This document shows positions 18,567 through 49,344 of a stretch of DNA of 64,000 nt, in pieces. Origin of the DNA: an uncultured Actinomycetota bacterium (GTDB lineage Bacteria > Actinomycetota > Actinomycetes > Mycobacteriales > Micromonosporaceae); the NCBI GenBank assembly GCA_963797605.1, contig CAWCPX010000009.1, forward strand, positions 867,950 to 931,949, written 5' to 3'. The notes under the pieces are model-generated. The model was not told where the DNA came from and searched no databases. It worked only from the letters and a program-made list of their open reading frames with translations. A program made the position numbers and the translations under genes. Within the stretch, counting starts at the first letter, position 1; each line of letters opens with the position of its first letter.

Positions 18567-18777
18567 GCGCCCTGTCACGCGCGCCCGATGACCGCCGCCG
18601 TCTCCTTCTCCGAGCGCGGCGCCTCGTGATGGATGAAAATCGGCCACGAAAGCGATACATAGTTCCCCGATAGTTTTAGTAGGCATATCGGAGGAGCATC
18701 ATGGTTGCGTTGGCACGTACGCCTTCGCCGCGCCACGGATCCGGCGAAGCTGTCTTACGAAAGTGAGAACGAACTCG

Positions 18778-19476: not shown

Positions 19477-19558
19477 ACCTGTCCAGTCGATCATGGTGAT
19501 CGGCAGGACAGGGCTTGATCGGGCATCGCTCGGCTGATCCCATGAAGGAGAAGACATC

Positions 19559-20464: not shown

Positions 20465-20465
20465 T

Positions 20466-20488
20466 ATCCCTATCACGCCGATAGGGAT
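20466..20488. promoter_or_regulatory. perfect palindrome ATCCCTATC-N5-GATAGGGAT (candidate operator)
   Basis: 9-bp arms. It lies 2 nt after the GST stop and 55 nt before the small ORF at 20543. It is related to the sites at 47649-47671 and 32255-32277. Confidence 0.5.
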
Positions 20489-20542
20489 TGCGCGTCAACA
20501 GGTGAAACCGTTACGCTCAGGGCAGGTCAGGAGGTAGTGACC

Positions 20543-20671
20543 GTGCATACACGAACCGATCTCGTGCTCGCCGCGCCACGGCGCCGACTGCCCTTCTCCC
20601 GTCGCCACATCGATCTGCGGCGCACCGCCAGCGCTCTGTGTCGGGGCTTCGACGCCCCGGTCCTCGGCTGA
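20543..20671 (+). CDS. candidate leader peptide (42 aa) of LLM operon 1
   Basis: AGGAGG sits 8 nt before GTG. VHTRTDLVLAAPRRRLPFSRRHIDLRRTASALCRGFDAPVLG*. The peptide is a paralog of the uORF at 47513..47650. Confidence 0.4.
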   Translation: MHTRTDLVLAAPRRRLPFSRRHIDLRRTASALCRGFDAPVLG

Positions 20672-20765
20672 ACCAAGCGACCGACACGCAGCTCCGCCCC
20701 CGCATAGCCCGGGGTCCGCGGGCACGTTTGGTGTGCCCATCGAGCGATTGAGGAGCGACCTCACC

Positions 20766-21980
20766 ATGCCCACCCGAACCGGACCACTGCACCTCTCCGT
20801 CGCCCTCGACGGCACCGGCTGGCACCCCGCGGCCTGGCGCGAGCCGCAGGCCCGGCCCGGCCGAGCTGTTCACCGCCGCGTACTGGCTCGACCTCGTCCC
20901 AGGAGGCCGAGCGCGGTCTGCTCGACTTCGTCACCATCGAAGACTCCCTCGGCCTGCAGTCGTCGCGCTACACCGAGCCCGACGACCGCACCGACCAGGT
21001 TCGGGGACGCCTCGACGCGGTCCTCATCGCGGCCCGGGTCGCGCCGCTGACCCACCACATCGGCCTGGTCCCGACCGCCGTCGTCACCCACACCGAGCCG
21101 TTCCACGTCGCCAAGGCCATCGCCACGCTCGACTACGTCAGCACCGGCCGGGCCGGCGTGCGCGTACAGGTATCGGCGCGGCCCGGCGAGGCGGCCCATT
21201 TCGGCCGGCGCGACGTTCCCGACGATCCGGATCGAGGACCGCGACGATCCGGTCGTGCAGCGGCTTGTCGGCGAGCTGTTCGACGAGGCCGCCGACTACG
21301 TCGAGGTGGTGCGGCGGCTCTGGGACAGCTGGGAGGACGACGCCGAGATCCGCGACGTCCGCCACCGGCCGGTTCGTCGATCGCGACAAGCTGCACTACA
21401 TCGACTTCGAGGGCCGAAACTTCCGCGTCAGGGGACCGTCGATCACGCCGCGCCCACCACAGGGCCAGCCGCTCGTCACCGCGCTCGGCCACCAGAGCGT
21501 GCCGTACCAGCTGATCGGCCGGGTCAGCCGACGTCGTCTTCATCACGCCGCGCGACGCCGACCACGCCCGGGCGATCGTCGCCGAGATCCGGGCCGCGCA
21601 GGCCGCGGCCGGTCGGGCCGAGGAGCCGGTCCACGTCTTCGGCGACCTCGTCGTCTTCCTCGACGAGACGCGCGACCGGCGCGACCGACCGCAAGGCCCG
21701 GCTCGACGACCTGGCCGGCGGCGACTACACCAGCGACGCCACGGTCTTCGCCGGCACCGCCGCCCAGCTCGCCGACCTGCTCGAGGACTGGCAGCAAGCC
21801 GGCGTCAGCGGCTACCGGCTGCGCCCCGGCACGGTTCCACACGACCTGGAGGCCATCACCCGCGGGCTCGTGCCGGAACTGCAGCGCCGGGGCGTGTTCC
21901 GCCGCGCCTACGAAGCCGACACCCTGCGCGGCCTGCTCGGCCTGTCCCGCCCCGCCAACCGCTACGCGGCCGCGGCCTGA
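20766..21980 (+). pseudogene. LLM-class (luciferase-like) flavin-dependent oxidoreductase with about six frame changes
   Basis: Seven frame segments join into one continuous LLM protein: MPTRTGPLHLSVALDGTGWHPAAWREPQARP / AELFTAAYWLDLV / QEAERGLLDFVTIEDSLGL...HFGRRDVP / TIRIEDRDDPVVQRLVGELFDEAADYVEVVRRLWDSWEDDAEIRDV / ATGRFVDRDKLHYIDFEGRNFRVRGPSITPRPPQGQP... / DVVFITPRDADHARAIV... / ATGATDRKARLDDLAGG...RPANRYAAAA*. Confidence 0.75.
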
Positions 21981-22052
21981 ATTCGGAGCCCCTCGAGCCT
22001 GTCAGCGAACCATGAACAGCATGGCCGCGCCCTGCGAAGCGGGACGGACATG
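21978..22052 (+). repeat. intercistronic element, copy 1
   Basis: ...GAGCCTGTCAGCGAACCATGAACAGCATGGCCGCGCCCTGCGAAGCGGGACGGACATG runs from the LLM1 stop to the LLM2 start. It is homologous to the tandem copies at 23418-23547. Confidence 0.7.
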
Positions 22053-23420
22053 AGCAAACCGCAAGCAGATCCACCTCGGCGCGCACTTCCCCGGCGTCAA
22101 CAACACCACCGTCTGGAGCGATCCCGAGCGCCGGCAGCCAGATCGAGTTCAGCTCGTTCCGACACTTCGCCCAGACCGCCGAGCGCGGCAAGTTCGACTT
22201 CTTCTTCCTGGCCGAGGGCCTGCGCCTGCGCGAGCAGGGCGGGCTGATCTACGACCTCGACGTGGTCGGCCGGCCGGACACGTTCACGGTGCTGGCCGCG
22301 CTCGCCGCCGTCACCGATCAGCTCGGCCTGGCGGGCACGATCAACTCGACCTTCAACGAGCCCTACGAGGTGGCCCGCCAGTTCGCGAGCCTCGACCACC
22401 TCTCGGGCGGCCGGGCCGCGTGGAACGTCGTCACGTCGTGGGACGCCTTCACCGGCGAGAACTTCCGCCGCGGCGGATTCCTGGCACAGGACCACCGATA
22501 CGCGCGAGCCGAGCAGTTCATGCGTACGACCTGGGAGCTGTTCGACTCGTGGCGCGGCGACGAGATCGTGGCCGACAAGGATTCCGGGCGTCTTCCTCGG
22601 CGACGCGGATGCCGGCCGGTTCCGGCATCACGACGACCACTTCGACATTTCCGGCCAGTTCAACGTGCCGCGCAGCCCACAGGGGCGCCCGGCCATCTTC
22701 CAGGCCGGCGACTCGGACGAGGGCCGGGACTTCGCGGCGGCGACCGCGGACGCGATCTTCAGCCGGCACAGCACGTTCGACGCCGGGCAGGCGTTCTACG
22801 CGGACGTGAAGGGTCGGCTGGCACGGTTCGGCCGTACCCATGACCAGCTCTTGATCTTGCCAGCGGCGACGTTCGTGCTCGGCGACACCGATGCCGAGGC
22901 GCAGGAGCTGGCGCACCAGGTGCGGCTGCAGCAGGTCAGCGGGCAGACCGCGATCAAGTTCCTGGAGCAGCTGTGGAACCGCGACCTGTCCGCCTACGAC
23001 CCGGACGGCCCGCTGCCGGAGATCGATCCCGACACCGGTGAGCACACCGTCGCGCGGGGCCGGGCGAGCGTGCGGATGTACCGGGACCCGGTCGCGACCG
23101 CGAACGAATGGCGCGAACGGGCGGCGGCGGAGAAATGGTCAATTCGCGAGCTGATCATCGAGGTCACGGGCCGGCAATCGTTCATCGGCTCGGCGGCCAC
23201 CGTGGCCGAGACGATCGACAGGTTCGTGCAGAAGGACGCAAGCGACGGCTTCATCCTGGTGCCCCACATCACGCCGGGCGGCTTGGACATCTTCGTCGAC
23301 ACGGTGGTGCCGCTGCTGCAGGAACGCGGCTCGTTCCGCACCGAGTACGAGGGCAGCACGCTGCGGGAGAACCTCGGTCTGGCGCCACACGGGGCGGTTG
23401 TCGAACAGGTGGCAGCGTGA
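22050..23420 (+). pseudogene. NtaA/SnaA/DszA-family FMN-dependent monooxygenase with three frame changes
   Basis: MSK / RKQIHLGAHFPGVNNTTVWSDPE / AGSQIEFSSFRHFAQTAERGKFDFFFLAEGLRLREQ...WRGDEIVADKDSG / VFLGDADAGRFRHHDDHFDISGQFNVPRSPQGRPAIFQAGDSDEG...VVEQVAA*. The breaks lie near 22059, 22130 and 22589, and each is explained by one extra C. Confidence 0.8.
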
Positions 23421-23547
23421 GCGAGCTTGTCGGAGCGAACCATGAGACAGCATGGCCGCGCCCTGCGAAGCGGGGGCGGACATGAGCGAGCTTGTCGGAG
23501 CGAACCATGAGACAGCATGGCCGCGTCCTGCGAAGCGGAGGCGGGCA
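23418..23547 (+). repeat. intercistronic element, tandem copies 2 and 3 (65-bp period)
   Basis: TGAGCGAGCTTGTCGGAGCGAACCATGAGACAGCATGGCCGCG(C/T)CCTGCGAAGCGG(G/A)GGCGG(A/G)CA occurs twice (23418-23482, 23483-23547) with 3 mismatches by eye. Confidence 0.85.
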
Positions 23548-24677
23548 TGACCACAACACCACTCGGGGTGCTCGACCTCGTACCGATCTCGACCGGGTCG
23601 ACCGCGGCGGAGGCTCTGCGCAACAGCATCGACCTCGCGCAGCAGACCGAACGATTCGGGTACGCCCGCTACTGGTTCGCCGAGCACCACCTCAACCCCG
23701 GTGTGGCCGGCACCTCCCCCGCCGTTGTGCTCGCCCTGACCGCGGCCGCCACCTCGACGATCCGGCTCGGGTCGGGTGCGGTGCAACTCGGCCACCGCAC
23801 CGCGCTGTCGACCGTGGAAGAGTTCGGCCTGCTCGACGCGCTGCACCCGGGGCGCCTGGATCTCGGTCTCGGCCGCTCTGGTGGGCGGCCGCCCGAACCA
23901 ACACGCGAGCCGACGCTCGCCGGCCCGAGCCAGGTCATCAACGGGTACACCGCGAACGGGCTGCGCATCCCGGCGAAGTTCTCCTTCGAAGGGCTGCTCA
24001 AGTCGCCGCGGTTCGCCTTGCAGAAAGGACTCCTGGCGCAGCCGCACGCGGAGCCACAGAACTACACCGAGCAGATCGGCGACATCCTGGCGCTCATCGC
24101 GGGCACCTACCGCAACGCCGACGGCGTCGAGGCGCACGTGATCCCGGGCGAGCACGCCGACCTGCAGATCTGGATCCTCGGCAGCAGCGGCGGTGATAGC
24201 GCGAACGTGGCCGGTCACAACGGGCTGCGTTTCGCAGCGAACTACCACGTCAGCCCGGCTACCGTGGTCGAGGCCGCCGAGGGGTACCGGGCCGCGTTCC
24301 GGCCGTCGGCGGTGCTCGACCGGAGGTACATCAGCGTGTCCGCCGATGTCGTGGTCGCTGACGACGAGGCGACCGCACGCGAACTCGCCACGGGCTACGG
24401 TCTATGGGTGCGCAGCATCCGCAGCGGCTCCGGCGCGATCCAGTTCCCGACGCCGGCCGAGGCTCGTCGACACGTGTGGACGGCCGAGGACCGCGCCCTG
24501 GTCGACGACCGGGTCGAGACGCAGTTCGTGGGCACCGCCGCGCACGTCGCCGATCAGCTCGAGACGTTGCGCGACGCGACCGGCGCCGACGAGCTGATCG
24601 TCACGACGATCACCCACGACCACGCCGACCGGGTCCGGTCCTATGAGCTGCTGGCTCAGGAATGGCACCGGCGATGA
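23547..24677 (+). CDS. LLM-class flavin-dependent oxidoreductase (intact)
   Basis: Track ORF 23517..24677, ATG 23547 behind GGAGG. MTTTPLGVLDLVPI...ERFGYARYWFAEHH is a typical luciferase-like N-terminus. Confidence 0.85.
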   Translation: MTTTPLGVLDLVPISTGSTAAEALRNSIDLAQQTERFGYARYWFAEHHLNPGVAGTSPAVVLALTAAATSTIRLGSGAVQLGHRTALSTVEEFGLLDALHPGRLDLGLGRSGGRPPEPTREPTLAGPSQVINGYTANGLRIPAKFSFEGLLKSPRFALQKGLLAQPHAEPQNYTEQIGDILALIAGTYRNADGVEAHVIPGEHADLQIWILGSSGGDSANVAGHNGLRFAANYHVSPATVVEAAEGYRAAFRPSAVLDRRYISVSADVVVADDEATARELATGYGLWVRSIRSGSGAIQFPTPAEARRHVWTAEDRALVDDRVETQFVGTAAHVADQLETLRDATGADELIVTTITHDHADRVRSYELLAQEWHRR

Positions 24678-24696
24678 TCGTTATGAGGCGAGCGCG

Positions 24697-25200
24697 ATGA
24701 ACATGCGACCGGCGTTGCAACCGGAGGAATTGCGGCGGGTATTCGCCGCGTTCCCGACGGGCGTGACCGCTATCGCCGCGCTCGTTGACGGCGTCCCGGT
24801 CGGGCTCGCGGCGAGTTCGTTCGTCTCGGTGTCGCTCGACCCGCCGATGGTGTCGGTGTGCGTCGCTCACACGTCGACCACGTGGCCCCGGTTGCGGCAG
24901 GTGCGGCGGCTGGGTGTCAGCGTGTTCGGCGCCCATCAGGAGGAGGCGTGCCGTCGCTTCAGCGCCCGCGACGGCGACCGGTTCGCGTCTCTGCGGTGGC
25001 GCTTGGGTGAGGGCGACGGCATCGTGATCGACGGGTCGAGCGCGTGGCTCGATTGCAGCATCGAGCAGGAGATCCCCGCCGGCGACCACGACATCGTGCT
25101 GCTGCGCGTACACAACCTCGACGCCGATCCGACGGTGGCACCGTTGGTCTTCCACGGCAGCCAGTTCCGGCAGCTCCAACCGCACGACCGCGCGGCATGA
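24697..25200 (+). CDS. flavin reductase family protein (NAD(P)H:FMN oxidoreductase)
   Basis: ATG 24697. FAAFPTGVTAIAALVDGVPVGLAASSFVSVSLDPPMVSVCV is the HpaC/NtaB-type flavin reductase domain. Confidence 0.85.
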   Translation: MNMRPALQPEELRRVFAAFPTGVTAIAALVDGVPVGLAASSFVSVSLDPPMVSVCVAHTSTTWPRLRQVRRLGVSVFGAHQEEACRRFSARDGDRFASLRWRLGEGDGIVIDGSSAWLDCSIEQEIPAGDHDIVLLRVHNLDADPTVAPLVFHGSQFRQLQPHDRAA

Positions 25201-32254: not shown

Positions 32255-32284
32255 TTCCCTACTATGTCTATAAGGATGGTAGAC
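32255..32284 (+). promoter_or_regulatory. shared TTCCCTACTA box plus GTCTA-N9-TAGAC dyad in the hydrolase/LysR divergent region
   Basis: The 10-mer TTCCCTACTA is identical to the one upstream of cysA (38459-38468, minus). TCCCTACTAT-N10-ATG has the same spacing as at 47650. TGACAC-N16-TACTAT is promoter-like. Confidence 0.45.
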
Positions 32285-32354
32285 AATTCTGAGGATGTCC
32301 AATGCTGATGCGTGGTCAGTACCGATCGCGATTCGTCATCGGTCACCGATAGCC

Positions 32355-33215
32355 ATGCCGGCCACGCTGGACATCGGAGCGTTGCGCAGTCTCATCGCGA
32401 TCGTCGACTGCGGCGGCTTCCACCGCGCGTCCGAGTCCCTCCGGATGTCGCAATCGGCCATCAGCCAACACGTGCGCAAACTCGAAGCGGTGCTCGGCCG
32501 CCGTGTCGTCGAACGCCACGGCCGCGCCACCCGGTTCACCCCCGACGGCGAAGCGCTGATCGCCGAAGCGCGGCTGATTCTCGCCGCTCACGACCAAGCG
32601 CTCCGGCGCCTCGGCACGCACGAGATCGACGCGCCCACGATCACGGTCGGCTCCACCGAGCACGCCGCCGAGCACCTGTTGCCGTACATCGGCAACGCCC
32701 TGGCCACGCACCTTCCCGGCGCGCACGTCAAGTTCCGCCTCGATCGTGGCGCCCGCCTCAACGAGGCGCTCGACCGCTCCGCCATCGATGTGGCCATCTT
32801 CATCGGCGACGCACGTGCTCCGGAGAGCGAACCCGCGGGCGAACTCCCCCTGTCGTGGTACGCGGCGCCCGGCTGGACGGCTCCCGCCGGTCTCGACGCG
32901 GTGCCGGTGGTCGTCATCGACGAGCCGTGCACGATCCGCCGGAAGGCGCTGAACACGCTGGCGCAGGCCGGGCGCACCGCCTCGATCGTGGGTGAATCCG
33001 GCTACCTCGCCGGCGTGCTGAACGTGGCGCGCGCGGGCGTCGGTGTCGCGCTGCTGGCCAACGTGGGATCAGCCCCGGAAGGCCTCGAACGCCGCCGCGA
33101 CCTACCCGAGGTGCGCTCGGAACCGCTGCACATCCGGGCCCGGCGCGGTGGCCCAGCCGGCCTCGCCCGCATCGTCAGCGCCGCCGTGCGCACCGCACTC
33201 GAAGACGCGAAGTAG
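32355..33215 (+). CDS. LysR family transcriptional regulator
   Basis: Track ORF 32295..33215, ATG 32355 (MPATLDIGALRSLIAIVDCGGFHRASESLRMSQSAISQHVRKLE). Confidence 0.85.
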   Translation: MPATLDIGALRSLIAIVDCGGFHRASESLRMSQSAISQHVRKLEAVLGRRVVERHGRATRFTPDGEALIAEARLILAAHDQALRRLGTHEIDAPTITVGSTEHAAEHLLPYIGNALATHLPGAHVKFRLDRGARLNEALDRSAIDVAIFIGDARAPESEPAGELPLSWYAAPGWTAPAGLDAVPVVVIDEPCTIRRKALNTLAQAGRTASIVGESGYLAGVLNVARAGVGVALLANVGSAPEGLERRRDLPEVRSEPLHIRARRGGPAGLARIVSAAVRTALEDAK

Positions 33216-33223
33216 GAGACGGG

Positions 33224-33622
33224 GTGCAGGTCACAGCACGCGGCGAGTACGCCGTTCGGGCCGTGATCGCCGCCGCGCAACATCCGACCGACAGCCCTGT
33301 GACGGCGACCACGGTCGCGCGGATCCAGCACATTCCGCTTGGGTTCCTCTACAGCATCATGACCGACCTGCGCCGGGCCGGGCTCATCACGACGTACCGC
33401 GGTTCGACCGGCGGCTTCCGACTGGCGCGGCCGGCCGAGGCGATCACGATCGGCGACGTGCTGCGGTCGGTCGACGACGGCGTCAACCACTTCGGCATGG
33501 ACCCGGCAATGTCAAAGGGGCACCAGTCCGGGCTCGATCGCGTCTGGGCGTCGGTGGGCAGCGCGATCGCCGACATCGTCGACCACACGACGATCGCGGA
33601 CGTCATCGGTTACGGCGACTAG
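33224..33622 (+). CDS. Rrf2 family transcriptional regulator without cysteines
   Basis: GTG start. ARGEYAVRAVIAAA...GFLYSIMTDLRRAGLITTYRGSTGGFRLARP. There is no Cys in the protein, so no Fe-S cluster ligands. Confidence 0.85.
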   Translation: MQVTARGEYAVRAVIAAAQHPTDSPVTATTVARIQHIPLGFLYSIMTDLRRAGLITTYRGSTGGFRLARPAEAITIGDVLRSVDDGVNHFGMDPAMSKGHQSGLDRVWASVGSAIADIVDHTTIADVIGYGD

Positions 33623-38400: not shown

Positions 38401-38466
38401 GCGCTCCCCCTTCCGTTCGCCGCGCAAGCTGAGTGTTCCTTATATTGTCGATGTGTTTAGTAGGGA

Positions 38467-38562: not shown

Positions 38563-39630
38563 TCAGCCGGCGGGCGACCAGCCCAACGCCGGTGCCACGG
38601 TCCGCGCCAGGTCGGTCAGCAGGCGTACGTTCTCCCCCAGCCCGAACGCCGGCGGCAGGAACAGCACCAGCTCATCGGCGACCGCCAACCCCGGATCGGC
38701 CAGGACGGCCTCGGCGACGGCCTCCGGGTCACCGTGGTAGACCGGGCTCATCACGATCCCCTCGGGCAGGTCGGCCGACAGCGTCGGCGCCAATGCGCCC
38801 TTCGGCCGGGAGGCGGCCGGCCCCTGGGTCCGGCGTTCGAGATCGTAGGCGGCGTACGTCGCGCGCAGTTCGGCCGTCGGGCCCGGTAGCACCGAGGCGG
38901 CCACGGCCACGGGCGGCGGTTCGGTGCCGTGGGTGACGTTCCAGGCCTCACGGTACGCGCCGACCAGCCGGGCCTGGTGTTCCGGGAACGACACGCCGAC
39001 GGGTACGTCGTGCAGGATCGTGCCGGTGACGAGCCGCAGGCCCTGTCGCGCCGCTGTCGTCGCGGAGGCGATACTGCCCGACCCGTACCAGATGCGGTCC
39101 CGCAGGCCAGGGCTGTGCGGGGTCACCCTCAGCTCGGTCCCGACCGGCGGACCGCCAATGCCCCGACGCTCGGTGACCGTGTGAATGGTCTCGCCCGCGA
39201 CTCCGGCCAGGAACCGGGCGAGCCGCCGCTGACCCTCGGTGCGGGCATCGGTGTCGACGGCGCCGAAGACCTCGTCCCAGACGTCCGTGCCGCTGGAAAA
39301 GGCCAGCTGTAGCCGTCCACCGGTGAGCAGATCGGCAGTACCGGCGGCCTCCGCGAGCAGGATCGGCTCCTGAAAACGCGCCGGGATGACGGCACTGCCC
39401 AGGGTGATCCGCGACGTGTGCTGACCGGCGGCGGCGAAGAACGGGATCGGCGAGGACAGGTAGTTGTCGAAATGCCGCTGGTACGCCCATCCCGACTGGT
39501 ATCCCAGTGCCTCCGCGGTCCGGAAGAGTTCGATGCCGTCCCGCAGGCCCCGGGCAGCTTCGCCGGCCGGGAACGACACCCGGGTGTTGAAGCCGAGCCT
39601 TCTTTTCGGCCTGGCCGCCTGGGCCGTCAT
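38563..39630 (-). CDS. LLM-class flavin-dependent oxidoreductase (intact)
   Basis: 355 aa. AEALGYQSGWAYQRHF... The start overlaps the ABC ATPase stop as ATGA. Confidence 0.8.
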   Translation of the reverse strand: MTAQAARPKRRLGFNTRVSFPAGEAARGLRDGIELFRTAEALGYQSGWAYQRHFDNYLSSPIPFFAAAGQHTSRITLGSAVIPARFQEPILLAEAAGTADLLTGGRLQLAFSSGTDVWDEVFGAVDTDARTEGQRRLARFLAGVAGETIHTVTERRGIGGPPVGTELRVTPHSPGLRDRIWYGSGSIASATTAARQGLRLVTGTILHDVPVGVSFPEHQARLVGAYREAWNVTHGTEPPPVAVAASVLPGPTAELRATYAAYDLERRTQGPAASRPKGALAPTLSADLPEGIVMSPVYHGDPEAVAEAVLADPGLAVADELVLFLPPAFGLGENVRLLTDLARTVAPALGWSPAG

Positions 39631-41297
39631 CCGATCCCCCGAGCGATGCGCCGGCCGGGGATGGCGTCGATCAACTCGCGCGTGTAGGGGCTCTGTGGGT
39701 TCGTGAAGACCTCCGCCACCGGCCCCTGTTCGACCACCCGGCCGCGGCTCATGACCGACACCGTGTGCGATATCTCGGCGACGACAGCCAGGTCGTGCGA
39801 GACGAACAGGTACGACAGGCCGAGCTGTGCCTGCAGGTCGGTGAGCAATCGGAGGATCTGCTCCTGGACCAGCACGTCGAGTGCCGAGACCGGCTCGTCC
39901 AGCATGATCAGGTCCGGCCGCAACGCCAGTGCGCGGGCGATCGCGACCCGTTGCCGCTGGCCGCCGGACAACTCGTGCGGCAGACGGTCGAGGTAGGCGG
40001 CGGGAAGAGCAACCTGGTCGAGCAGTTCGCGGGCACGTGCTTGCCGGCTCGTGCGGTCACCGATCCGGAAGGCGACCAGCGGCTCGGTGATCGACTGCCC
40101 GATGGTGAACTTCGGATCCAGGGTCGCGAACGGGTCCTGGTGCACGATCTGGGCCTTGCGGCGGAGCGGGCGCAGCTCGCGCCACGACAGACCGCCGATC
40201 TCCGTACCGTCGAGCACAATGGACCCGCTGGTCGATGTCTCCAGACCGAGCGCGATGCGCAGGGTCGTCGTCTTGCCGGAGCCGGATTCGCCGACGAGCG
40301 CGTGTGTCTGACCGCGCGGCACCGTGACGGTGATGCCGTCGAGGGCGTTGAAGCCCCGCTGGCCGCGACGGGAGTCGTTGACCGCGAACGTCTTGCTGAC
40401 GTCGGTCAGGGTGAGGATCGGCTGGGGCACCGGCTGCTCGCGGACGTCGAATCGCGGCACGACGCCGCCACTGCCGGCAAGGCCGGGCGCGGCCGCGATG
40501 AGGCGGCGGGTGTAGTCCACTCGCGGCGCGGTCAGGATGGTGTGCGGGTCGCCTTCCTCGACCTTGCGACCGTGTTGCATGACCACGATCCGATCGGCCC
40601 GGTCGGCGGCGATGGCCAGGTCGTGCGTGACGATCAGCAGCGAGATGCCACGATCACGCACCAGGTCGCCGAGGTGGTCGAGGATCTTGCCCTGCACTGT
40701 GACGTCGAGGGCGCTGGTCGGTTCGTCCGCGATGATCAGCTTCGGCCGGCCGGCCAGCGCGATCGCGATGAGGACACGCTGCCGTAGGCCGCCGGACAGC
40801 TCATGCGGGTACTGGCCGGCGCGCAGTCCGGGATCGGGCACCCCGGCCTGTTCGAGGAACTCTGTCACCTCGGCGTCCGCCTGCGGGCCGGTGACGCCAC
40901 GCAGCTTGACCGCCTCGGCGATCTGCGCCCCGATCCGTTTCGTGGGATTGAGGCTCACCATCGGGTCCTGCGGAATCAGGCTGACGACCGAGCCGCGCAG
41001 TGTACGCAGAACCCGTTCCTTCGCCCCGGCCGTCTCGGTGCCGTCGACGATCGCCGAACCGGCGGTGATGCGCCCGTTCGCCGGGAGGAGTCCGATGATC
41101 GCGTTGGCGATCGTGGTTTTGCCGGAGCCCGACTCCCCCACGATTGCGACGACCTCAGCCGGGTTGACGGTGAGGTCGAGGCCGACGACCGCTGGATGCA
41201 CCGAGCGCCGCCGGATATAGCCGACGTCGAGGCCCCGGATCTCGACGAGCGCGGGCGTCTCGGGTGTGCGTGCGCGTTCGGGGAGGATGGCGGTCAT
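39627..41297 (-). CDS. ABC transporter ATP-binding protein, fused double cassette (Dpp/Opp D-F type)
   Basis: ATG 41297. Two Walker A motifs (GESGSGKTT twice) and two signatures ([16 protein letters not shown]). Confidence 0.9.
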   Translation of the reverse strand: MTAILPERARTPETPALVEIRGLDVGYIRRRSVHPAVVGLDLTVNPAEVVAIVGESGSGKTTIANAIIGLLPANGRITAGSAIVDGTETAGAKERVLRTLRGSVVSLIPQDPMVSLNPTKRIGAQIAEAVKLRGVTGPQADAEVTEFLEQAGVPDPGLRAGQYPHELSGGLRQRVLIAIALAGRPKLIIADEPTSALDVTVQGKILDHLGDLVRDRGISLLIVTHDLAIAADRADRIVVMQHGRKVEEGDPHTILTAPRVDYTRRLIAAAPGLAGSGGVVPRFDVREQPVPQPILTLTDVSKTFAVNDSRRGQRGFNALDGITVTVPRGQTHALVGESGSGKTTTLRIALGLETSTSGSIVLDGTEIGGLSWRELRPLRRKAQIVHQDPFATLDPKFTIGQSITEPLVAFRIGDRTSRQARARELLDQVALPAAYLDRLPHELSGGQRQRVAIARALALRPDLIMLDEPVSALDVLVQEQILRLLTDLQAQLGLSYLFVSHDLAVVAEISHTVSVMSRGRVVEQGPVAEVFTNPQSPYTRELIDAIPGRRIARGIG

Positions 41298-42208
41298 CGC
41301 TCGAGCTCCTGCAGGGTTTTGGAGATGTGGTTGAGGCTGAGCACGAGCAGCGCGACGAACAGGCCCGGCAGCAGGCTCAGCCACCACGCCGTGATCAGGT
41401 AGTCGCGGCCGTCGGCGATGAGCGTGCCCCACTCAGCGGCCGGCGGCGCGGCGCCGAAGCCGAGGAAGCTCAGCGACGCGATCGCGATGATGGCCACGCC
41501 GGCGTCGAGGACGGCGAGCACGGCGACCGGCCCCCAGGAGTTCGGGAGGATGTGCCGCAGCAGCACCCGGACCCAGGACGCGCCGCCGGCGCGGGCCGCC
41601 TCGACGTACGGCAGGGTTTTGACGCGGAGCACCTCGGCTCGGGTCGTCCGGGCGAATCCGGGGATGATGCCGACGCCGACGGCCAGCGCGACCGGAAGCG
41701 TGCCGTAGCCGAGGGCGGTCACGATGGACAGGGCCAGGAGCAGGCCTGGGATGGCGAGCAGCACGTCGACGACGCGCATCAGCAACGCGTCCGTGATGCC
41801 GCTGAGAAAGCCCGAGAGCACGCCCAGGCCGAGGCCGGCGACGAGCGCGATAACCAGCGCGATCAGCGTTGCCTTGATGGTGAGCGCGGACCCGTAGAGC
41901 ACACGCGTCCACAGATCCCGGCCGTAGTTGTCCGTGCCGAACAGGTGGTGCAGGCTCGGGGACAGCATCGCCGTCCGCGGGTGCGTGTCGTACGGGCCGG
42001 CCGAGGTGAACCCGCTTGGCCAGAACGCCGACACGATCACGAACAGCACGTAGAGCACCGCGATCAGGAACACCGGCTTGCGTACCAGTGCCGCGATCTG
42101 TGCTCGTAGGTTGAGCCACCGGCCGCCGGCGTCCTCGACATCGACCGGCACGTCCGCACCGACCGTGCGTACGCGGGTCGCGACGTGCTCGGATACCTCG
42201 ACGGTCAT
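41294..42208 (-). CDS. ABC transporter permease (DppC/OppC type)
   Basis: 304 aa with the binding-protein-dependent transport motif YVEAARAGGASWVRVLLRHILPN. Confidence 0.9.
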   Translation of the reverse strand: MTVEVSEHVATRVRTVGADVPVDVEDAGGRWLNLRAQIAALVRKPVFLIAVLYVLFVIVSAFWPSGFTSAGPYDTHPRTAMLSPSLHHLFGTDNYGRDLWTRVLYGSALTIKATLIALVIALVAGLGLGVLSGFLSGITDALLMRVVDVLLAIPGLLLALSIVTALGYGTLPVALAVGVGIIPGFARTTRAEVLRVKTLPYVEAARAGGASWVRVLLRHILPNSWGPVAVLAVLDAGVAIIAIASLSFLGFGAAPPAAEWGTLIADGRDYLITAWWLSLLPGLFVALLVLSLNHISKTLQELER

Positions 42209-43194
42209 ATCGCACTCACCTCCGGGGGCGCCGCCGGCAACCGCACCTTCCCGCCGCCGGTGTGGGATATCCGCGGGTCCAGTAACGGATAGAGCAGGTC
42301 GACGACGAGGTTGACGAACACGAAGATCGCGGCGGCGATGGTGACCACGGCGAGCACGACCGGCACGTCCTGCGACAGCACCGACTCTTGCGCGAGTTTG
42401 CCGAGACCTTCCCGGGTGAAGACCGTCTCCACGACGATCGAGCTGGTCACGGTCAGGCCGACGATGACACCGAGGATGGTCATGGCCGGCAGTGCCGCGT
42501 TGCGGAACGCGTGCCGCAGGTGCGTCGCCGAACGCGACAGGCCCTTGGCCCGCGCGGTGACGATGTACGACTGCCGCAGCGTCTCATCGAAGCTCTTGAT
42601 GAGCACCTGCGCCAGAATCGACGAGGTGAGCAGCGAGATCGTGATGACCGGCATGGCCAGCGAAGCGGGGCCCTGGGTGCCGGTGGCGGGGAACCATCCG
42701 AGCTGGAAGGAGAAGAACTGAATGAGGAACAGCGCCACGAAGAACTGCGGGAACGAGGCGCCGAGCGCGGGAAGGCGGGTGAGGAAGATCCGCAGCGGGT
42801 TCCACCGTGCGAACGTGGCGATGTAGGCCAGTGCCGAGCCGGCTAGCAGGGAGACGATGGCGGCGACGACGCTGAGCAGCAGTGTCTGGCCGATCCGTTG
42901 GCCGATGAGCTGGCTGACGGGCACTCCCTGGATGAGCGACGTGCCGAAGTCGCCGTGCAACGCGCCGACGAGGTGATGCCAGTACTGCGTCCAGATCGAC
43001 TGGTCGAGGCCGAATCTGTGCTTCGTGGCGGCCAGTTGTGCCGCCGTCAGGCTGTCCTCCTGCACGCCGGCCGCCGCCAGTTGCAGCTGCATCGGGTCGC
43101 TGGGCAGCAGATAGAGGATCGCGAAGGTGAGCGTGAACGCCGCCCAGAGGACGACGACCGCTTGCGCCACGCGACCGGCGATGTACCGGATCAT
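42205..43194 (-). CDS. ABC transporter permease (DppB/OppB type)
   Basis: ATG 43194 (MIRYIAGRVAQAVVVLW...). SYIVTARAKGLSRSATHLRHAFRNA. Confidence 0.9.
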   Translation of the reverse strand: MIRYIAGRVAQAVVVLWAAFTLTFAILYLLPSDPMQLQLAAAGVQEDSLTAAQLAATKHRFGLDQSIWTQYWHHLVGALHGDFGTSLIQGVPVSQLIGQRIGQTLLLSVVAAIVSLLAGSALAYIATFARWNPLRIFLTRLPALGASFPQFFVALFLIQFFSFQLGWFPATGTQGPASLAMPVITISLLTSSILAQVLIKSFDETLRQSYIVTARAKGLSRSATHLRHAFRNAALPAMTILGVIVGLTVTSSIVVETVFTREGLGKLAQESVLSQDVPVVLAVVTIAAAIFVFVNLVVDLLYPLLDPRISHTGGGKVRLPAAPPEVSAI

Positions 43195-43258
43195 GCGCTC
43201 CGCCTTTCTCAAAGCGGTCCGCCCCGCACCGGGGTTCCGATGCGGGGCGGCCCGTCGG

Positions 43259-44935
43259 TCAGCTCTTCCAGACGTCGTTGAGCTTGAGGAAGCTCTCGGA
43301 CGTGAACGCCAATCCGTGGACGTGGCTGTTGACGCCGGCTTCCTGCACCCGCTCGAACAGCGGGAACACGACACCCTGATCGATCAGGTAGTCCTGCAGG
43401 TCGGCGTACGCCTGCGTGGTCTGGCTCGCGTCGGTGGTCTGGATCGCCTTCTTGAAGAGGCCCTGGATGTGCGCGATGACGTCGGGTGCGGCCGAGCGGC
43501 CGGCGAGCGCCTTCGAGTTCGCGACGTCCGGGTTGATGATGTACTGCAGCGCGCCGGGGTCGGCCCGGGTGAAGTAGTTCGCGGTCAGGTCGTAGCTGCC
43601 GTCGGGCAGGTAGGTCGCCTGCTGGGCCGGCGTCAGGGTGCGCAGGGCCAGGTTGATGCCGACCTGCTTCAGCTGTGCCTGCAGCAGTTCCGCACCGTCG
43701 CTGAACTGGGTGACGGGGTAGTCGAGCGTCAGCTCCTGGCCATTCTTGTAGCGGTAGCCGCCCTTGCCGATGCTCCAGCCGTCCGTTTGCAGGATCTGCT
43801 CGGCGCCGGTCGGGTTGTAGGCGAGCTTCGCCGACTCCGATTTGAAGCCCGGCGTGGTCGAGTCGAACACGCTCTGCACCACCGGGTAATCGGGGCCGAA
43901 GACGGTCGACGCGTACGTCTTGAGGTCGATCGCCTGGTAGAGCGCCTGGCGGACCTGCGGGTCGTTCAGCGGGTGGCCCACGCTCGTGTTCGCGAACTGC
44001 GTGTAGGAGACGCCGGGAAGTGGACGCTTGGCGACGGTGTCCCCGGACTTCTCGATCAGCTTCTCGTCCTGTGGTGAGAACGGGTTGCGGGGCCAGGCGA
44101 TGTCGATTGCCCCGCTGACCAGGTTGCCCGTCCGCACGCTGTCTTCGGCCACGTAGTTGAAGACGACCTTATCGAGGTACGCCTCACCCCGGTTGGTCTC
44201 CAGGGAGGATGCCCACTGGTAGCCCTTGCGTTTGGTGAGGACGGTCTCGACCTTCGGCGTGTAGTGGTCGAGCACGAACAGGCCGGAGCCGATGACACCC
44301 TTGCCGAGGCACCGGTCGGTCGGCTGCTCCTGGTACTCGGTCGGGTCGGTGATGGCGAGGTTCGTGGTCGACGTCGCCTGCAGGAACGACGAGTTCGGCT
44401 GGCTGAGGTGAAACGCCACCGTGGTCGGGTCGACGACGGTGGCACCGGTCAGGCCCTGGACGTACGAGGATCCGTAGGCGGTGCCGTTGGTCGCTTTCAC
44501 GGTGTCGATCCAGCCTTGGGCGTCCGTGGCGACGGCCTGGGCGTCGAGTTTGTCGCCGTTGCTGAAGGTGACGCGGTCGCGAAGGTGGAACGTGTACGTC
44601 AGGCCGTCGGGGCTGATCTGCCAACCGGTGGCGAGCCAGGGCACGATCTTGCCGGTCGCCGGGTCCTGGTCGGTGAGCGAGTCGGCGAAGTTACGGATGA
44701 TCGTGCGGCTTTCGATCCAGTACACCTGGAACGGGTCGATGCACGAGAACGTCGGGTTGTCCGGGAAGAAGGACACTTTCAGGGTGCCGCCGTGCTGTGG
44801 TGTTCCGTTACCGGCCGAACCGGCGTCCGCTTTGCCGCTGTTGCAGCCGGCGAGGGCGATGAGGGCGGAGGCGGCGACGGCGGCGACCGCGGAACGGCGC
44901 CACAGGCGAGGTCTAGGGGGTCTGAGCGTGGTCAT
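43259..44935 (-). CDS. ABC transporter substrate-binding lipoprotein, peptide/nickel family 5
   Basis: ATG 44935. Lipobox LAGC. GGTLKVSFFPDNP...TFSNGDKLDAQAV is the SBP_bac_5 pattern. Confidence 0.9.
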   Translation of the reverse strand: MTTLRPPRPRLWRRSAVAAVAASALIALAGCNSGKADAGSAGNGTPQHGGTLKVSFFPDNPTFSCIDPFQVYWIESRTIIRNFADSLTDQDPATGKIVPWLATGWQISPDGLTYTFHLRDRVTFSNGDKLDAQAVATDAQGWIDTVKATNGTAYGSSYVQGLTGATVVDPTTVAFHLSQPNSSFLQATSTTNLAITDPTEYQEQPTDRCLGKGVIGSGLFVLDHYTPKVETVLTKRKGYQWASSLETNRGEAYLDKVVFNYVAEDSVRTGNLVSGAIDIAWPRNPFSPQDEKLIEKSGDTVAKRPLPGVSYTQFANTSVGHPLNDPQVRQALYQAIDLKTYASTVFGPDYPVVQSVFDSTTPGFKSESAKLAYNPTGAEQILQTDGWSIGKGGYRYKNGQELTLDYPVTQFSDGAELLQAQLKQVGINLALRTLTPAQQATYLPDGSYDLTANYFTRADPGALQYIINPDVANSKALAGRSAAPDVIAHIQGLFKKAIQTTDASQTTQAYADLQDYLIDQGVVFPLFERVQEAGVNSHVHGLAFTSESFLKLNDVWKS

Positions 44936-44966
44936 GGCTTTTCCTTCGGGAAGGTCGGAGGATGGA

Positions 44967-47650: not shown

Positions 47651-47671
47651 GCCTATCAGAATAGTAGGGAT
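47649..47671 (-). promoter_or_regulatory. ATCCCTA-N7-GATAGG dyad overlapping the uORF start
   Basis: Minus strand ATCCCTActattctGATAGGcAT, nested inside the 8-bp inverted repeat TTAATCCC...GGGATTAA. Confidence 0.45.
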
Positions 47672-49339: not shown

Positions 49340-49344
49340 AGATC

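What the first reader, a model, noticed from the sequence alone, without database searches (positions are those of the whole stretch)
20466..20671. Paralogous leader peptide and perfect ATCCCTATC-N5-GATAGGGAT palindrome in front of LLM operon 1
A perfect 9-bp-arm palindrome (20466-20488) is followed 55 nt later by AGGAGG-N8-GTG. This opens a 42-codon ORF, VHTRTDLVLAAPRRRLPFSRRHIDLRRTASALCRGFDAPVLG*, which ends 95 nt before the LLM1 ATG. By hand alignment, RRRLPFSRRHIDLRRTASALCR versus RRRLTH-RRVIDLMRRSAACCR (uORF at 47650) gives 13 identical positions of 22. Several identical residues use different codons (ATC/ATT Ile, GAT/GAC Asp, CTG/CTC Leu, CGG/CGC Arg). That pattern argues for conservation at the peptide level rather than the RNA level. 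So two separate sulfur-type operons carry the same dyad-plus-peptide architecture.
Basis: seen in the sequence. Interest (0 to 1): 0.7.

Follow-up and report, generated by a model that had tools for sequence, protein, structure and literature searches.

The report
Cysteine-sensing leader peptide plus sulfur-regulon operator
The small ORF belongs to an already catalogued family of actinobacterial leader peptides that sense cysteine supply and control sulfur genes, and the palindrome in front of it is a regulator binding site shared by the neighbouring sulfur genes, so the finding is real but largely of a known kind.

Summary
Both observations hold. The perfect 9-5-9 palindrome (20466-20488) and the SD-led 42-codon ORF (GTG 20543 to TGA 20671) are there. 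The only other close copy of the palindrome in the window (47649-47671) sits in front of the ORF most similar to sORF1.

sORF1 passes NCBIfam NF042934 ("cis_reg_atten, putative leader peptide"). So does Ms5788A, the M. smegmatis leader shown experimentally to attenuate in response to cysteine. The family core is RRH[IV]DLxR[VT][AS]xAxC. It precedes LLM1 orthologs, sulfite reductase or GST-like genes in Streptomyces, Jatrophihabitans, Pseudonocardiales and Mycobacteriales (some of them MAGs).

Relatives with an intact LLM1 keep the window's variant core (RRHIDL[RQ]RTASALC) and the dyad. sORF2 is a significant but divergent paralog. It fails the NCBIfam model and is absent from all 35 examined LLM2-ortholog leaders.

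Synonymous variation supports constraint on the peptide. The sensing Cys codon is always the rare TGT, which I cannot explain.

The dyad is a transcription-factor operator. There are six motif hits (five sites, one a double dyad) against 0.58 expected. They lie at the promoters of cysA, GNAT-GST, both LLM operons and a LysR-Rrf2 regulator pair.

Verdict: a new member of a known kind. The RNA switch in these two leaders and the identity of the regulator remain unresolved.

The parts
20466..20488 (.). Perfect 9-5-9 dyad ATCCCTATC-N5-GATAGGGAT, read as a transcription-factor operator. Its centre is about -47 from the predicted TSS and its last T is the first base of the -35.
   Evidence: It is conserved in L050 (ATCCCTATCACACCGCTAGGGAT), in L052/L053 (TTCCTACCAGACAGATAGGGA) and is 100% identical in L098.
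20488..20517 (+). Predicted promoter of leader 1: -35 TTGCGC (20488-20493), an 18-nt spacer, -10 TACGCT (20512-20517), and a TSS near 20524.
   Evidence: Read by eye. The same TAGGGATTGCG...17-18 nt...TA(C/A)(G/C)CT arrangement is present in L050 and L052. The strict sigma-70 consensus scan found nothing.
20529..20534 (+). Shine-Dalgarno AGGAGG of sORF1, 8 nt before GTG 20543.
   Evidence: It is conserved in L050 and appears as GGAGG in L052.
20543..20671 (+). sORF1, a 42-codon leader peptide of the NF042934 'cis_reg_atten' family. The core SRRHIDLRRTASALC spans 20597-20641.
   Evidence: NF042934 gives 31.3 bits against a cutoff of 27. A local family HMM gives E = 9.7e-11 in a six-frame scan. 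Orthologous sORFs are present in L050, L052, L002 and L098.
20639..20641 (+). The single Cys codon (TGT), the presumed sensing codon.
   Evidence: TGT occupies this position in 37 of 37 family loci. Ordinary genes use TGT for only 15-17% of Cys codons.
20750..20768 (+). SD GAGGAG (20750-20755) and ATG (20766) of LLM1, the regulated gene.
20766..25200 (+). Regulated operon: LLM1 (NtaA/SsuD-like), a second LLM, an MsnO8-family LLM (23517-24677) and a flavin reductase (24643-25200). LLM1 and the second LLM are frame-broken in this assembly.
   Evidence: An independent assembly, L098, lacks the first two LLM1 frameshifts.
47649..47671 (.). Second dyad (minus strand ATCCCTACTATTCTGATAGGCAT), with an extra half-site, GATCGGGAT, one helical turn downstream (to 47640). 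It overlaps the predicted -10 and +1 of leader 2.
   Evidence: The same promoter-dyad arrangement precedes LLM2 orthologs in L056, L059 and L066.
47658..47687 (-). Predicted promoter of leader 2: -35 TTGGAC (47687-47682), an 18-nt spacer, -10 TATTCT (47663-47658). The TSS would be at or next to A47650.
   Evidence: Read by eye. The -35 TTGGAC/CTGGAC sits at a fixed 13-14 nt from the dyad in L056, L059 and L066.
47513..47650 (-). sORF2, 45 codons and probably leaderless, ending ...RRVIDLMRRSAACCR*. Both Cys codons are TGT (47524-47519). It is a divergent paralog of sORF1.
   Evidence: The local family HMM gives E = 0.0014, the second-best hit in the window. NCBIfam gives no hit. The public variant P0342 (LTSRRVIDLMRVATALCR) passes NF042934.
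38563..47368 (-). Operon 2: LLM2 (ATG 47368, frame-broken), an SfnB-like acyl-CoA-dehydrogenase-fold protein, a peptide/nickel-type ABC transporter (SBP_5, two permeases, ATPase) and a further LLM.
   Evidence: The whole block 38508-47842 is absent from a relative about 88% identical.
18665..18685 (.). Dyad-like site upstream of the GNAT-GST genes (18763-20464).
   Evidence: It is conserved upstream of the GNAT gene in L053.
32256..32285 (.). Two overlapping dyads, TCCCTACTATGTCTATAAGGA and TGTCTATAAGGATGGTAGACA, upstream of the LysR-Rrf2 gene pair.
   Evidence: The same double dyad lies upstream of the LysR ortholog in L051 (output).
32295..33622 (+). Candidate regulators: a LysR-type gene (32295-33215) followed by a Cys-free Rrf2-family gene (33224-33622).
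   Evidence: Pfam and NCBIfam. LysR orthologs or homologs lie next to dyad promoters or LLM orthologs in L051 and 13 other loci.
38446..38466 (.). Dyad-like site just downstream of the -35 TTGACA / -10 TAAGAT of the sulfate ABC transporter operon (cysA-like gene 38427-37414, minus strand).
   Evidence: It is conserved in the relative L097.

Best explanation
There are two stacked controls on a sulfur-scavenging monooxygenase operon.

(1) The 23-bp dyad is the operator of a sulfur-regulon transcription factor. The same half-site, (A/T)TCCCTA(C/T), sits on or against core promoter elements at several promoters. Those are the sulfate transporter, the GNAT-GST genes, both LLM operons and the LysR-Rrf2 regulator pair itself. 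The regulator is most likely one of those two proteins. Because the sites overlap the -35, the -10 or the +1, it most likely acts as a repressor that is released when sulfur is short.

(2) The transcript then starts with a short ORF of the Ms5788A/'cis_reg_atten' family. A ribosome translating it reaches a single rare TGT cysteine codon, with the conserved RRHIDLxRTASAL peptide in its exit tunnel. When charged tRNA-Cys is scarce, the ribosome lingers there and holds the leader RNA in a form that allows expression of LLM1 and the genes behind it. When cysteine is plentiful, the ribosome finishes and leaves, and the leader refolds to damp downstream expression.

What is shown: family membership, conservation of the element, its association with sulfur genes, and constraint on the peptide. 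What is inferred: translation of the ORF, cysteine responsiveness, the direction of control, the RNA rearrangement, and which protein binds the dyad.

sORF2 is a diverged second copy, apparently leaderless, in front of an accessory second operon.
For: Family membership:
- sORF1 scores 31.3 bits on NF042934, cutoff 27.
- Ms5788A itself scores 38.9 bits on the same model. Mutational analysis showed Ms5788A to be a cysteine-responsive, translation-dependent attenuator (bioRxiv 10.1101/834739).
- 472 cluster representatives match the family profile at E <= 1e-3. NCBI names the members 'putative leader peptide'.

Association with sulfur genes:
- The first downstream genes in 42 genome loci are LLM1 orthologs, sulfite reductase or GST-like genes.

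Conservation in relatives:
- Relatives with an intact LLM1 keep the dyad, the promoter, the SD and an sORF with the same core (L050, L052/53). The 54-nt core is identical while the flanks vary.

Constraint on the peptide:
- Six Leu codons and four to five Arg codons are used at fixed residues.
- Ten of the 15 residues identical between sORF1 and sORF2 use different codons.

RNA mechanism in the family:
- An anti-SD directly 3' of the sORF stop pairs with the SD, with some compensatory changes.
- Duplex energies have a mean z of -1.96 in 15 sulfite-reductase leaders.
- Masking a ribosome stalled at the Cys codon opens the SD in 13 of 15 and 7 of 9 leaders.

Operator:
- Six motif hits against 0.58 expected, all in promoter regions of sulfur-related genes or of the regulator pair.
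- Orthologous sites are conserved in L050, L052/53, L051, L097, L056, L059 and L066.
- A LysR ortholog (76-80% identical) sits directly before a dyad-GST-LLM1 operon in L051.
Against: - No expression, TSS or ribosome data exist for this organism.
- sORF1 has one Cys codon followed by nine more codons. The published criterion was at least two consecutive Cys codons near the end.
- In the window's own leaders the folding tests do not show a convincing switch. MFE z-scores are about 0. SD accessibility rises only from 0.27 to 0.34 on simulated stalling in leader 1, and falls from 0.55 to 0.37 in leader 2. The three-sequence consensus fold has an unfavourable covariation term.
- sORF2 gets no NCBIfam hit. 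It is absent upstream of 35 LLM2 orthologs. It lies in a 9.3-kb block missing from a close relative.
- The promoters were assigned by eye, and the consensus scan found none.
- The dyad lies at different positions relative to the promoters, so a single mode of action is not certain.
- LysR and Rrf2 cannot be told apart with the data in hand.
Confidence: 0.68

Rival explanations
1. The conserved element works as an RNA, either a riboswitch-like structure or a protein-binding RNA. On this view the reading frame is incidental and the peptide similarity is a by-product of a conserved RNA sequence.
For: The 54-nt core is identical, without even synonymous changes, between the window and L050, while flanking codons differ at 15 positions. 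RNAalifold predicts a 13-bp hairpin inside the core coding sequence of the sulfite-reductase group. The Cys codon is fixed as TGT, which is a nucleotide-level feature.
Against: Across 41 loci the same 11 residues are encoded by 40 different DNA sequences. Third positions vary freely, including changes that break the predicted hairpin: CGC/CGG, GTC/GTG and CGC/CGG/CGA/CGT. sORF1 and sORF2 share 62% of residues but only 58% of bases. No Rfam family matches either leader, even at E <= 10. The frame, a start codon with an SD, and a stop codon are kept in every member. For Ms5788A, start-codon, nonsense and frameshift mutations abolish regulation.
Confidence: 0.08
2. sORF2, and possibly the whole of operon 2, is a decaying or non-functional relic. 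Only leader 1 is then a working attenuator, and the 'same architecture twice' is historical rather than functional.
For: sORF2 fails NF042934. It departs from near-invariant positions (H to V, V to R, G to A). No sORF precedes any of the 35 LLM2 orthologs examined; there the dyad promoter runs straight into the SD. The 9.3-kb block is missing in a relative. LLM2 carries at least 3 frame changes and a stop codon. Simulated stalling closes rather than opens its SD.
Against: The similarity to sORF1 is significant. sORF2 is the second-best family-HMM hit in the window. A public member with the same VIDLM variant passes the NCBIfam cutoff. sORF2 keeps the hallmark TGT-TGT-CGC-stop ending and a start codon at the predicted +1. 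The frame breaks may be assembly errors, as shown for LLM1.
Confidence: 0.3
3. The palindrome is an RNA hairpin that terminates or stabilises the upstream GST transcript, not a protein-binding site.
For: It starts two bases after the GST stop codon and can form a 9-bp stem with a 5-nt loop.
Against: There is no U-tract, and the terminator scan found nothing. The same sequence, not merely a hairpin, recurs at four other promoter regions that do not follow genes in this way. In L050 one arm changed (GATAGGGAT to GCTAGGGAT) without a compensating change. In L051 the site lies upstream of the GST gene instead.
Confidence: 0.04
4. sORF1 encodes the precursor of a ribosomally made, modified peptide, tailored by the adjacent luciferase-like monooxygenases.
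For: It is a small Cys-containing ORF next to several LLM genes and a flavin reductase.
Against: The same core peptide precedes sulfite reductase and GST-like genes in other genera. The surrounding genes are for sulfate transport and sulfonate scavenging. A SAM-IV riboswitch precedes the sORF in L052. No RiPP maturation, protease or export genes were seen. NCBI curates the family as a cis-regulatory leader.
Confidence: 0.02

Closest known systems
Ms5788A/Rv0815A and the other polycysteine leaderless short ORFs of mycobacteria (Canestrari et al. 2020, bioRxiv 10.1101/834739; NCBIfam NF042933, NF042936)
   Same: The core motif is homologous. Ms5788A reads LTKRRAVDLCRVAG-Cn, the family consensus LTSRRHIDLLRVAGAxC, and sORF1 FSRRHIDLRRTASALC. 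Ms5788A passes the same NF042934 model. In all cases there are Cys codon(s) at the 3' end of a short ORF that forms the first cistron of a cysteine/sulfur operon. sORF2 appears leaderless and ends CCR*, as Ms4533A does.
   Different: sORF1 has a strong SD and a predicted 5' UTR of about 19 nt, so it is not leaderless. It has one Cys codon, not 2-8, and nine codons follow it. The host is an uncultured non-mycobacterial actinomycete. The downstream genes are LLM monooxygenases. The long SD-sequestering duplex described for Ms5788 is not evident here. A transcription-factor operator is stacked on top, whereas at the one locus tested in detail (Ms5788) the authors concluded that transcription initiation did not contribute to the cysteine response, and RNA-seq suggested robust constitutive transcription of the other LL-sORFs.
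NCBIfam NF042934 'cis_reg_atten, putative leader peptide' (annotated in Streptomyces, Jatrophihabitans, Pseudonocardia)
   Same: sORF1 scores above the curated cutoff. Its position is orthologous to that of the annotated leaders in front of LLM1 orthologs in Streptomyces.
   Different: The window lineage carries a variant core (L to R/Q, V to T, G to S) and a 9-codon tail. Neither sORF of this genome is present as a called protein in the public collection. sORF2 is below the model's detection.
Classical amino-acid operon leader peptides (trpL, hisL, pheL, ilvL of enterobacteria; established knowledge)
   Same: A short upstream ORF enriched in the codon of the regulated amino acid couples ribosome speed to downstream expression.
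   Different: The classical leaders act through alternative terminator and antiterminator hairpins and use runs of the sensed codon. Here no intrinsic terminator is predicted. A single codon may do the sensing, and a long invariant peptide precedes it.
Sulfur-regulon transcription factors: LysR-type CysB/Cbl (enterobacteria) and Rrf2-type CymR (Bacillus/Staphylococcus); compared from established knowledge, not tested here
   Same: A LysR-type gene and a Cys-free Rrf2 gene lie together behind a double dyad. The dyad contains a T-N11-A core typical of LysR boxes, and its 23-bp inverted repeat is typical of Rrf2 operators. The genes it marks (sulfate transporter, sulfonate-type monooxygenases) match those regulons.
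   Different: Neither protein reaches the CysB or CymR equivalog cutoffs. The operator sequence is not one I can match to a published motif. Binding has not been tested.

Membership tests
NCBIfam NF042934 cis_reg_atten (putative leader peptide) | HMM score at or above the curated cutoff (27 bits) | tested here: met
   sORF1 scores 31.3 bits. Its orthologs in L050 and L052 score 29.6 and 30.8 bits, and Ms5788A scores 38.9 bits.
NCBIfam NF042934 cis_reg_atten (putative leader peptide), applied to sORF2 | HMM score at or above the curated cutoff (27 bits) | tested here: not met
   No hit at E <= 10, whether the whole 45 aa or the last 24 aa are scanned. The only support is a broader local HMM (14.6 bits, E = 0.0014 for the window's six-frame set) and pairwise similarity to sORF1.
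Cysteine-responsive attenuator sORFs (Canestrari et al. 2020) | A short ORF is the first cistron, on the same strand, upstream of cysteine/sulfur metabolism genes | tested here: met
   sORF1 ends 94 nt before LLM1, which is followed by two more LLMs and a flavin reductase. sORF2 ends 144 nt before LLM2, which is followed by an SfnB-like gene and an ABC transporter.
Cysteine-responsive attenuator sORFs (Canestrari et al. 2020) | At least two consecutive Cys codons at or near the C-terminus | tested here: not met
   sORF1 has a single Cys (residue 33 of 42). sORF2 meets the criterion (CC-R-stop). Many NF042934 members also have a single Cys, so the criterion of the paper's screen is narrower than the family.
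Cysteine-responsive attenuator sORFs (Canestrari et al. 2020) | Leaderless transcript (TSS at the start codon) | tested here: inconclusive
   Sequence only. sORF1 has AGGAGG-N8-GTG and a conserved promoter about 19 nt upstream, so it is predicted to be SD-led. The ATG of sORF2 lies 7-8 nt after a -10-like TATTCT, so it is predicted to be leaderless. TSS mapping is needed.
Cysteine-responsive attenuator sORFs (Canestrari et al. 2020) | A leader RNA duplex occludes the downstream ribosome-binding site and is disrupted by a ribosome stalled at the Cys codons | tested here: inconclusive
   The feature is supported in family leaders. In the window, SD accessibility changes only from 0.27 to 0.34 in leader 1 and from 0.55 to 0.37 in leader 2, and the MFE z-scores are about 0.
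Cysteine-responsive attenuator sORFs (Canestrari et al. 2020) | Downstream expression responds to cysteine supply and depends on translation of the sORF | not testable with these tools
   This needs reporter, proteomic or Ribo-seq experiments.
LysR-type regulator operator | An inverted repeat with a T-N11-A core near the -35 to -65 region, a linked LysR gene, and an autoregulatory site | tested here: met
   The dyad contains a TA-N9-TA core. A LysR gene lies at 32295-33215, with a double dyad at 32256-32285. The LysR ortholog in L051 directly precedes a dyad-GST-LLM1 operon. Homologs lie within 4 kb of LLM2 orthologs in 13 loci. Actual binding was not tested.
Rrf2/CymR-type repressor operator | A palindrome of about 23 bp overlapping core promoter elements, and an Rrf2 gene in the regulon | tested here: inconclusive
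   An Rrf2 gene lies at 33224-33622 (104.9 bits on rrf2_super; below the CymR and IscR cutoffs; no Cys residues) directly after LysR. The dyads overlap the predicted -35, -10 or +1. Among fetched loci, an Rrf2 neighbour was seen only in L003.
Intrinsic terminator | A GC-rich hairpin followed by a U-tract | tested here: not met
   No terminator-like sites in 20350-20850 or in 47300-47800.
Rfam riboswitches and leaders | A covariance-model match | tested here: not met
   Nothing at gathering threshold in either leader. At E <= 10 there were only noise hits to eukaryotic or unrelated families.

The most novel reading that the evidence does not exclude
The near-invariant 12-residue peptide RRH[IV]DLxR[VT][AS]xA, together with the obligatory rare TGT codon, may form a programmed ribosome-arrest module. 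On this reading the nascent chain in the exit tunnel slows decoding or peptide-bond formation at the Cys codon, or senses a sulfur metabolite. A single Cys codon, or in some members none, would then be enough to report cysteine status. That would make this widespread actinobacterial family a TnaC- or SpeFL-like sensor rather than a simple codon-counting attenuator.
Probability: 0.25. Interest if true: 0.7.

Novelty: new member of a known kind. Interest (0 to 1): 0.36.

Why it matters
The finding extends a mechanism proven only in mycobacteria to an uncultured actinomycete lineage. That mechanism is ribosome-mediated cysteine sensing by tiny upstream ORFs.

It also shows that the module is combined freely with other controls on the same sulfur-scavenging operon. 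Here it is stacked on a transcription-factor operator, and in one relative a SAM-IV riboswitch sits between the two.

It gives a concrete operator motif and two candidate regulators for a sulfur regulon in actinomycetes that has not been characterised.

The family-wide analysis raises one question that can now be tested directly. An amino-acid attenuator keeps a 12-residue peptide almost invariant and always uses the rare TGT codon at the sensing position, and the reason is unknown.

Tried and rejected
**Rfam.** I scanned the whole window at gathering threshold and both leaders at E <= 10. Nothing relevant came up.

**Promoter and terminator consensus scans.** No hits at either leader. The promoters in this report are therefore by-eye assignments, backed by conservation in relatives.

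**Single-sequence folds of both leaders.** They are no more stable than shuffles, with z = +0.35 and -0.23.

**Three-sequence consensus fold of the window-lineage leader.** It suggested a long-range helix between the core coding sequence and the region upstream of the LLM1 SD. The covariation term is unfavourable, so I did not adopt it.

**A narrow family HMM built only from canonical RHIDLLRVAGA members.** It missed sORF2. A broader HMM built from 134 distinct public cores recovered it.

**The dyad in the other leader-peptide loci.** It is absent from all 41 family loci examined, so dyad and peptide are separable modules.

**An sORF upstream of LLM2 orthologs.** A regex search and an HMM search of 35 loci both found none.

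**Literature search for the motif string HIDLLRV.** No papers.

**First reading of LLM1 and LLM2 as true pseudogenes, with the sORF variants as decay products.** I rejected this for sORF1, because relatives with an intact LLM1 keep exactly the same variant core. The pseudogene reading itself is weakened, because an independent assembly lacks the first two frameshifts.

**The published CymR motif.** It was not retrievable from the one paper I opened. The resemblance to CymR therefore stays a recollection, not a test.
Full report
**1. Observation**

The sequence is as described.
- ATCCCTATC-ACGCC-GATAGGGAT lies at 20466-20488, two bases after the stop codon of a glutathionyl-hydroquinone-reductase-type GST gene (19559-20464).
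- AGGAGG lies at 20529-20534, and GTG 20543 opens a 42-codon ORF ending at TGA 20669-20671.
- The LLM1 ATG is at 20766.

Allowing up to 3 mismatches, the dyad has exactly one other copy in 64 kb, at 47649-47671, against 0.01 expected. That copy sits in front of a minus-strand ORF (ATG 47650 to TGA 47513) ending RRRLTHRRVIDLMRRSAACCR*.

The peptide similarity is significant.
- The local score is 56, reached by none of 20,000 residue shuffles and none of 5,000 dinucleotide shuffles.
- sORF2 is the top non-self hit of sORF1 among all 1,419 six-frame segments of the window, though the runner-up scores 52.
- Of 24 aligned codons, 15 encode the same residue. Ten of those use different codons, and only 42 of 72 bases are identical.

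**2. What the small ORF is**

sORF1 passes the curated cutoff of NCBIfam NF042934, 'cis_reg_atten, putative leader peptide' (31.3 bits against 27).

A profile search of the public protein collection returned short proteins that NCBI names 'putative leader peptide'. They come from Streptomyces, Jatrophihabitans, Pseudonocardia and Actinacidiphila, and all carry ...SRRHIDLLRVAGAxC near the C-terminus. An exhaustive HMMER search of 1.84 billion cluster representatives found 472 members at E <= 1e-3.

The family includes the experimentally studied case. Ms5788A of M. smegmatis (VSTRLELSLTKRRAVDLCRVAGCCCCCCCC) scores 38.9 bits on NF042934. Canestrari et al. showed that Ms5788A confers cysteine-responsive control on the downstream genes. 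They also showed that this needs its start codon, its reading frame and its Cys codons. Their model is that a ribosome stalled in the Cys tract prevents an RNA duplex that otherwise hides the downstream ribosome-binding site (bioRxiv 10.1101/834739).

A back-translated RHIDLLRVAG pattern found 42 loci among 185,579 species genomes. Two of them (a Planctomycetota MAG and a contig binned as a cyanobacterium) lie outside the actinomycetes, and one of these was dropped from the codon analysis. The first downstream gene is an LLM1 ortholog in Streptomyces and a sulfite reductase in Jatrophihabitans, Pseudonocardiales and Mycobacteriales MAGs. In two Streptomyces lineages it is a GST-like gene.

**3. 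sORF1 is a conserved lineage variant, not decay**

sORF1 differs from the commonest core at three positions (L to R, V to T, G to S) and has nine codons after the Cys. At first I suspected decay, because LLM1 looked frame-broken. Four observations argue against that.
- A JGI contig with an intact LLM1 (86% identical) carries the dyad (ATCCCTATCACACCGCTAGGGAT), the same SD and an sORF with an identical core. Its peptide is VQPRTDLVPAVPRRRLAFSRRHIDLRRTASALCRGLDTPVR* (L050). Codons 18-35 are identical at the base level, while the flanking codons differ at 15 positions.
- Two further contigs have GNAT-GST-[TTCCTACCAGACAGATAGGGA]-...-MPSGLLRICRRHIDLQRTASALCPRAH*-LLM-LLM (L052/L053).
- Public members with RTASAVC and with DLRR also exist and pass the NCBIfam cutoff.
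- An independent assembly of a 99.5%-identical sequence (L098) has a leader that is 100% identical.

**4. sORF2**

sORF2 fails NF042934. A local HMM built from 134 distinct public cores, none from this window, finds exactly two hits above its inclusion threshold in the six-frame translation of the window. These are sORF1 (E = 9.7e-11) and sORF2 (E = 0.0014); the next hit is at 0.085. One public member, P0342 (LTSRRVIDLMRVATALCR), shares the unusual VIDLM and passes the cutoff.

However, 35 LLM2 orthologs from JGI metagenomes (48-87% identical, mostly 81-87%) have no such ORF. In L056, L059 and L066 the same -35/dyad promoter runs directly into the SD. In addition, the whole block 38508-47842, which holds leader 2 and operon 2, is missing from a relative about 88% identical (L097). 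sORF2 is therefore a diverged, lineage-restricted paralog, and its function is less certain.

**5. Peptide or RNA?**

In the 41 pattern-selected loci analysed, 40 different DNA sequences encode the motif. Leu uses six codons, including TTA. Arg uses CGC, CGG, CGT, CGA and AGG. Val uses four codons. The pattern itself fixed the residues, so this shows free synonymous change rather than residue invariance. Residue invariance comes from the unconstrained searches.

RNAalifold does predict a hairpin within the core coding sequence. Most of its pairs never vary, and common synonymous variants break it.

One nucleotide-level feature is striking. The last Cys codon is TGT in 37 of 37 loci, and also in sORF1, sORF2, L050 and L052. 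Ordinary genes in the same DNA use TGT for only 15-17% of Cys codons. I have no tested explanation for this.

**6. Mechanism**

In the sulfite-reductase leaders, a UCCCUUC directly after the sORF stop pairs with the GAAGGGA Shine-Dalgarno, and the helix extension shows some compensatory changes.
- Duplex energies beat shuffles, with mean z = -1.96 and 8 of 15 leaders at P <= 0.05.
- Masking the footprint of a ribosome stalled at the Cys codon raises SD accessibility in 13 of 15 leaders.
- In Streptomyces LLM leaders it does so in 7 of 9, through a UCCUGA:UCAGGA pairing.

This matches the published model.

For the window's own leaders the same tests are weak or contrary.
- In leader 1, SD accessibility rises only from 0.27 to 0.34.
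- In leader 2 it falls from 0.55 to 0.37.
- The MFE z-scores are about 0.

I therefore assign the mechanism by homology. The local RNA rearrangement is unresolved.

**7. The dyad**

A relaxed motif, TsCCTAy-N7-rTAGGsA, has six hits (five sites, one a double dyad) against 0.58 expected. Their positions are:
- upstream of the GNAT-GST genes (18665);
- at leader 1 (20467);
- as two overlapping dyads upstream of a LysR gene (32256 and 32265);
- just after the -35 TTGACA / -10 TAAGAT of a sulfate ABC transporter operon (38446);
- at leader 2 (47650).

Orthologous sites are conserved in relatives (L050, L052/53, L051, L097).

At leader 1 the dyad abuts a -35 TTGCGC. The arrangement TAGGGATTGCG, then 17-18 nt, then TAnnCT is conserved in L050 and L052. 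At leader 2 and its orthologous promoters, a -35 TTGGAC sits 13-14 nt from the dyad, so the -10 falls inside the dyad and the ATG of sORF2 falls at +1. These promoter calls were made by eye.

The LysR gene (32295-33215) is followed by a Cys-free Rrf2 gene (33224-33622). A 76-80% identical LysR ortholog directly precedes dyad-GST-LLM1 in L051 and has the same double dyad upstream of itself. LysR homologs lie within 4 kb of LLM2 orthologs in 13 loci, several of them followed by a dyad promoter. Site positions on core promoter elements favour a repressor. Genomic linkage favours LysR, and operator shape suits Rrf2. I cannot decide between the two proteins.

**8. Modularity**

The dyad occurs without the sORF in L004, L051, L056, L059 and L066. 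The sORF occurs without the dyad in all 41 family loci examined. Both occur together in the window (twice), in L050 and in L052/53. In L052 a SAM-IV riboswitch (97.9 bits) sits between the dyad and the sORF.

**9. Verdict**

The element is a new member, in an uncultured actinomycete, of a known and curated family of cysteine-sensing leader peptides. It is stacked on an uncharacterised sulfur-regulon operator.

The open questions worth following concern the family as a whole: the invariant peptide, the obligatory TGT codon, and the identity of the regulator.

Noticed in passing
window 20766-23420 and 46148-47368; L098: LLM1 has at least 5 frame changes. The second LLM has 2. LLM2 has at least 3 plus an in-frame stop. 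About 40 kb of other genes are intact. An independent assembly of a 99.5%-identical sequence lacks the first two LLM1 frameshifts, and all ten mismatches cluster in LLM1. These are probably consensus or strain-mixture errors rather than true pseudogenes.
   Followed up: partly
window 38508-47842 versus L097: The 9.3-kb block carrying leader 2 and the whole of operon 2 is absent from a relative about 88% identical (ERZ25039594 contig_57141). In that relative the NlpC/P60 region joins directly to the cysA promoter. I saw no flanking repeats.
   Followed up: partly
L007-L048 (family loci), window 20639-20641 and 47519-47524: The last Cys codon of the leader peptides is always TGT (37 of 37, plus the window copies), although TGT makes up only 15-17% of Cys codons in neighbouring genes. 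Where there are two Cys codons in the genome loci (four cases), the order is TGC then TGT; the window's sORF2 has TGT-TGT.
   Followed up: partly
L052 1120-1229: A SAM-IV riboswitch (97.9 bits) lies between the dyad promoter and the leader-peptide ORF of the orthologous LLM operon. That gives three stacked sulfur-related controls in one leader.
   Followed up: yes
window 32256-32285: Two dyads offset by 9 bp lie upstream of the LysR-Rrf2 pair. The second is a perfect TGTCTA-N9-TAGACA. The same double dyad lies upstream of the LysR ortholog in L051. Leader 2 likewise has an extra half-site (GATCGGGAT) one helical turn downstream of its dyad.
   Followed up: partly
window 33224-33622: An Rrf2-family regulator with no cysteine residues, so it cannot hold the usual Fe-S cluster. 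It lies directly after the LysR gene.
   Followed up: no
window 49343-49507 (minus strand): A c-di-AMP (ydaO/yuaA) riboswitch, 49 bits, lies directly upstream of an NlpC/P60 cell-wall hydrolase gene at 48524-49339.
   Followed up: no
window 7224-7290: An Rfam 'Transposase-2 RNA' motif, 51.6 bits.
   Followed up: no
L019 about 3295-3447; L027, L038, L046: These family members lack the sensing Cys. L019 has TGG in place of TGT and a long read-through tail in front of an LLM1 ortholog. The S. macrosporus, S. tardus and Streptomyces sp. XM4193 leaders end AGAARPLH* or AGAS*. In L027 and L038 (S. macrosporus, S. tardus) the first downstream gene was checked and is GST-like; L046 (XM4193) was not checked.
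   Followed up: no
L058, L063, L064, L068 (upstream of LLM2 orthologs): A different dyad, CCGATAAC-N5-GCTATCGG, with half-sites in the opposite order, lies between a LysR homolog and the LLM2 ortholog.
   Followed up: no
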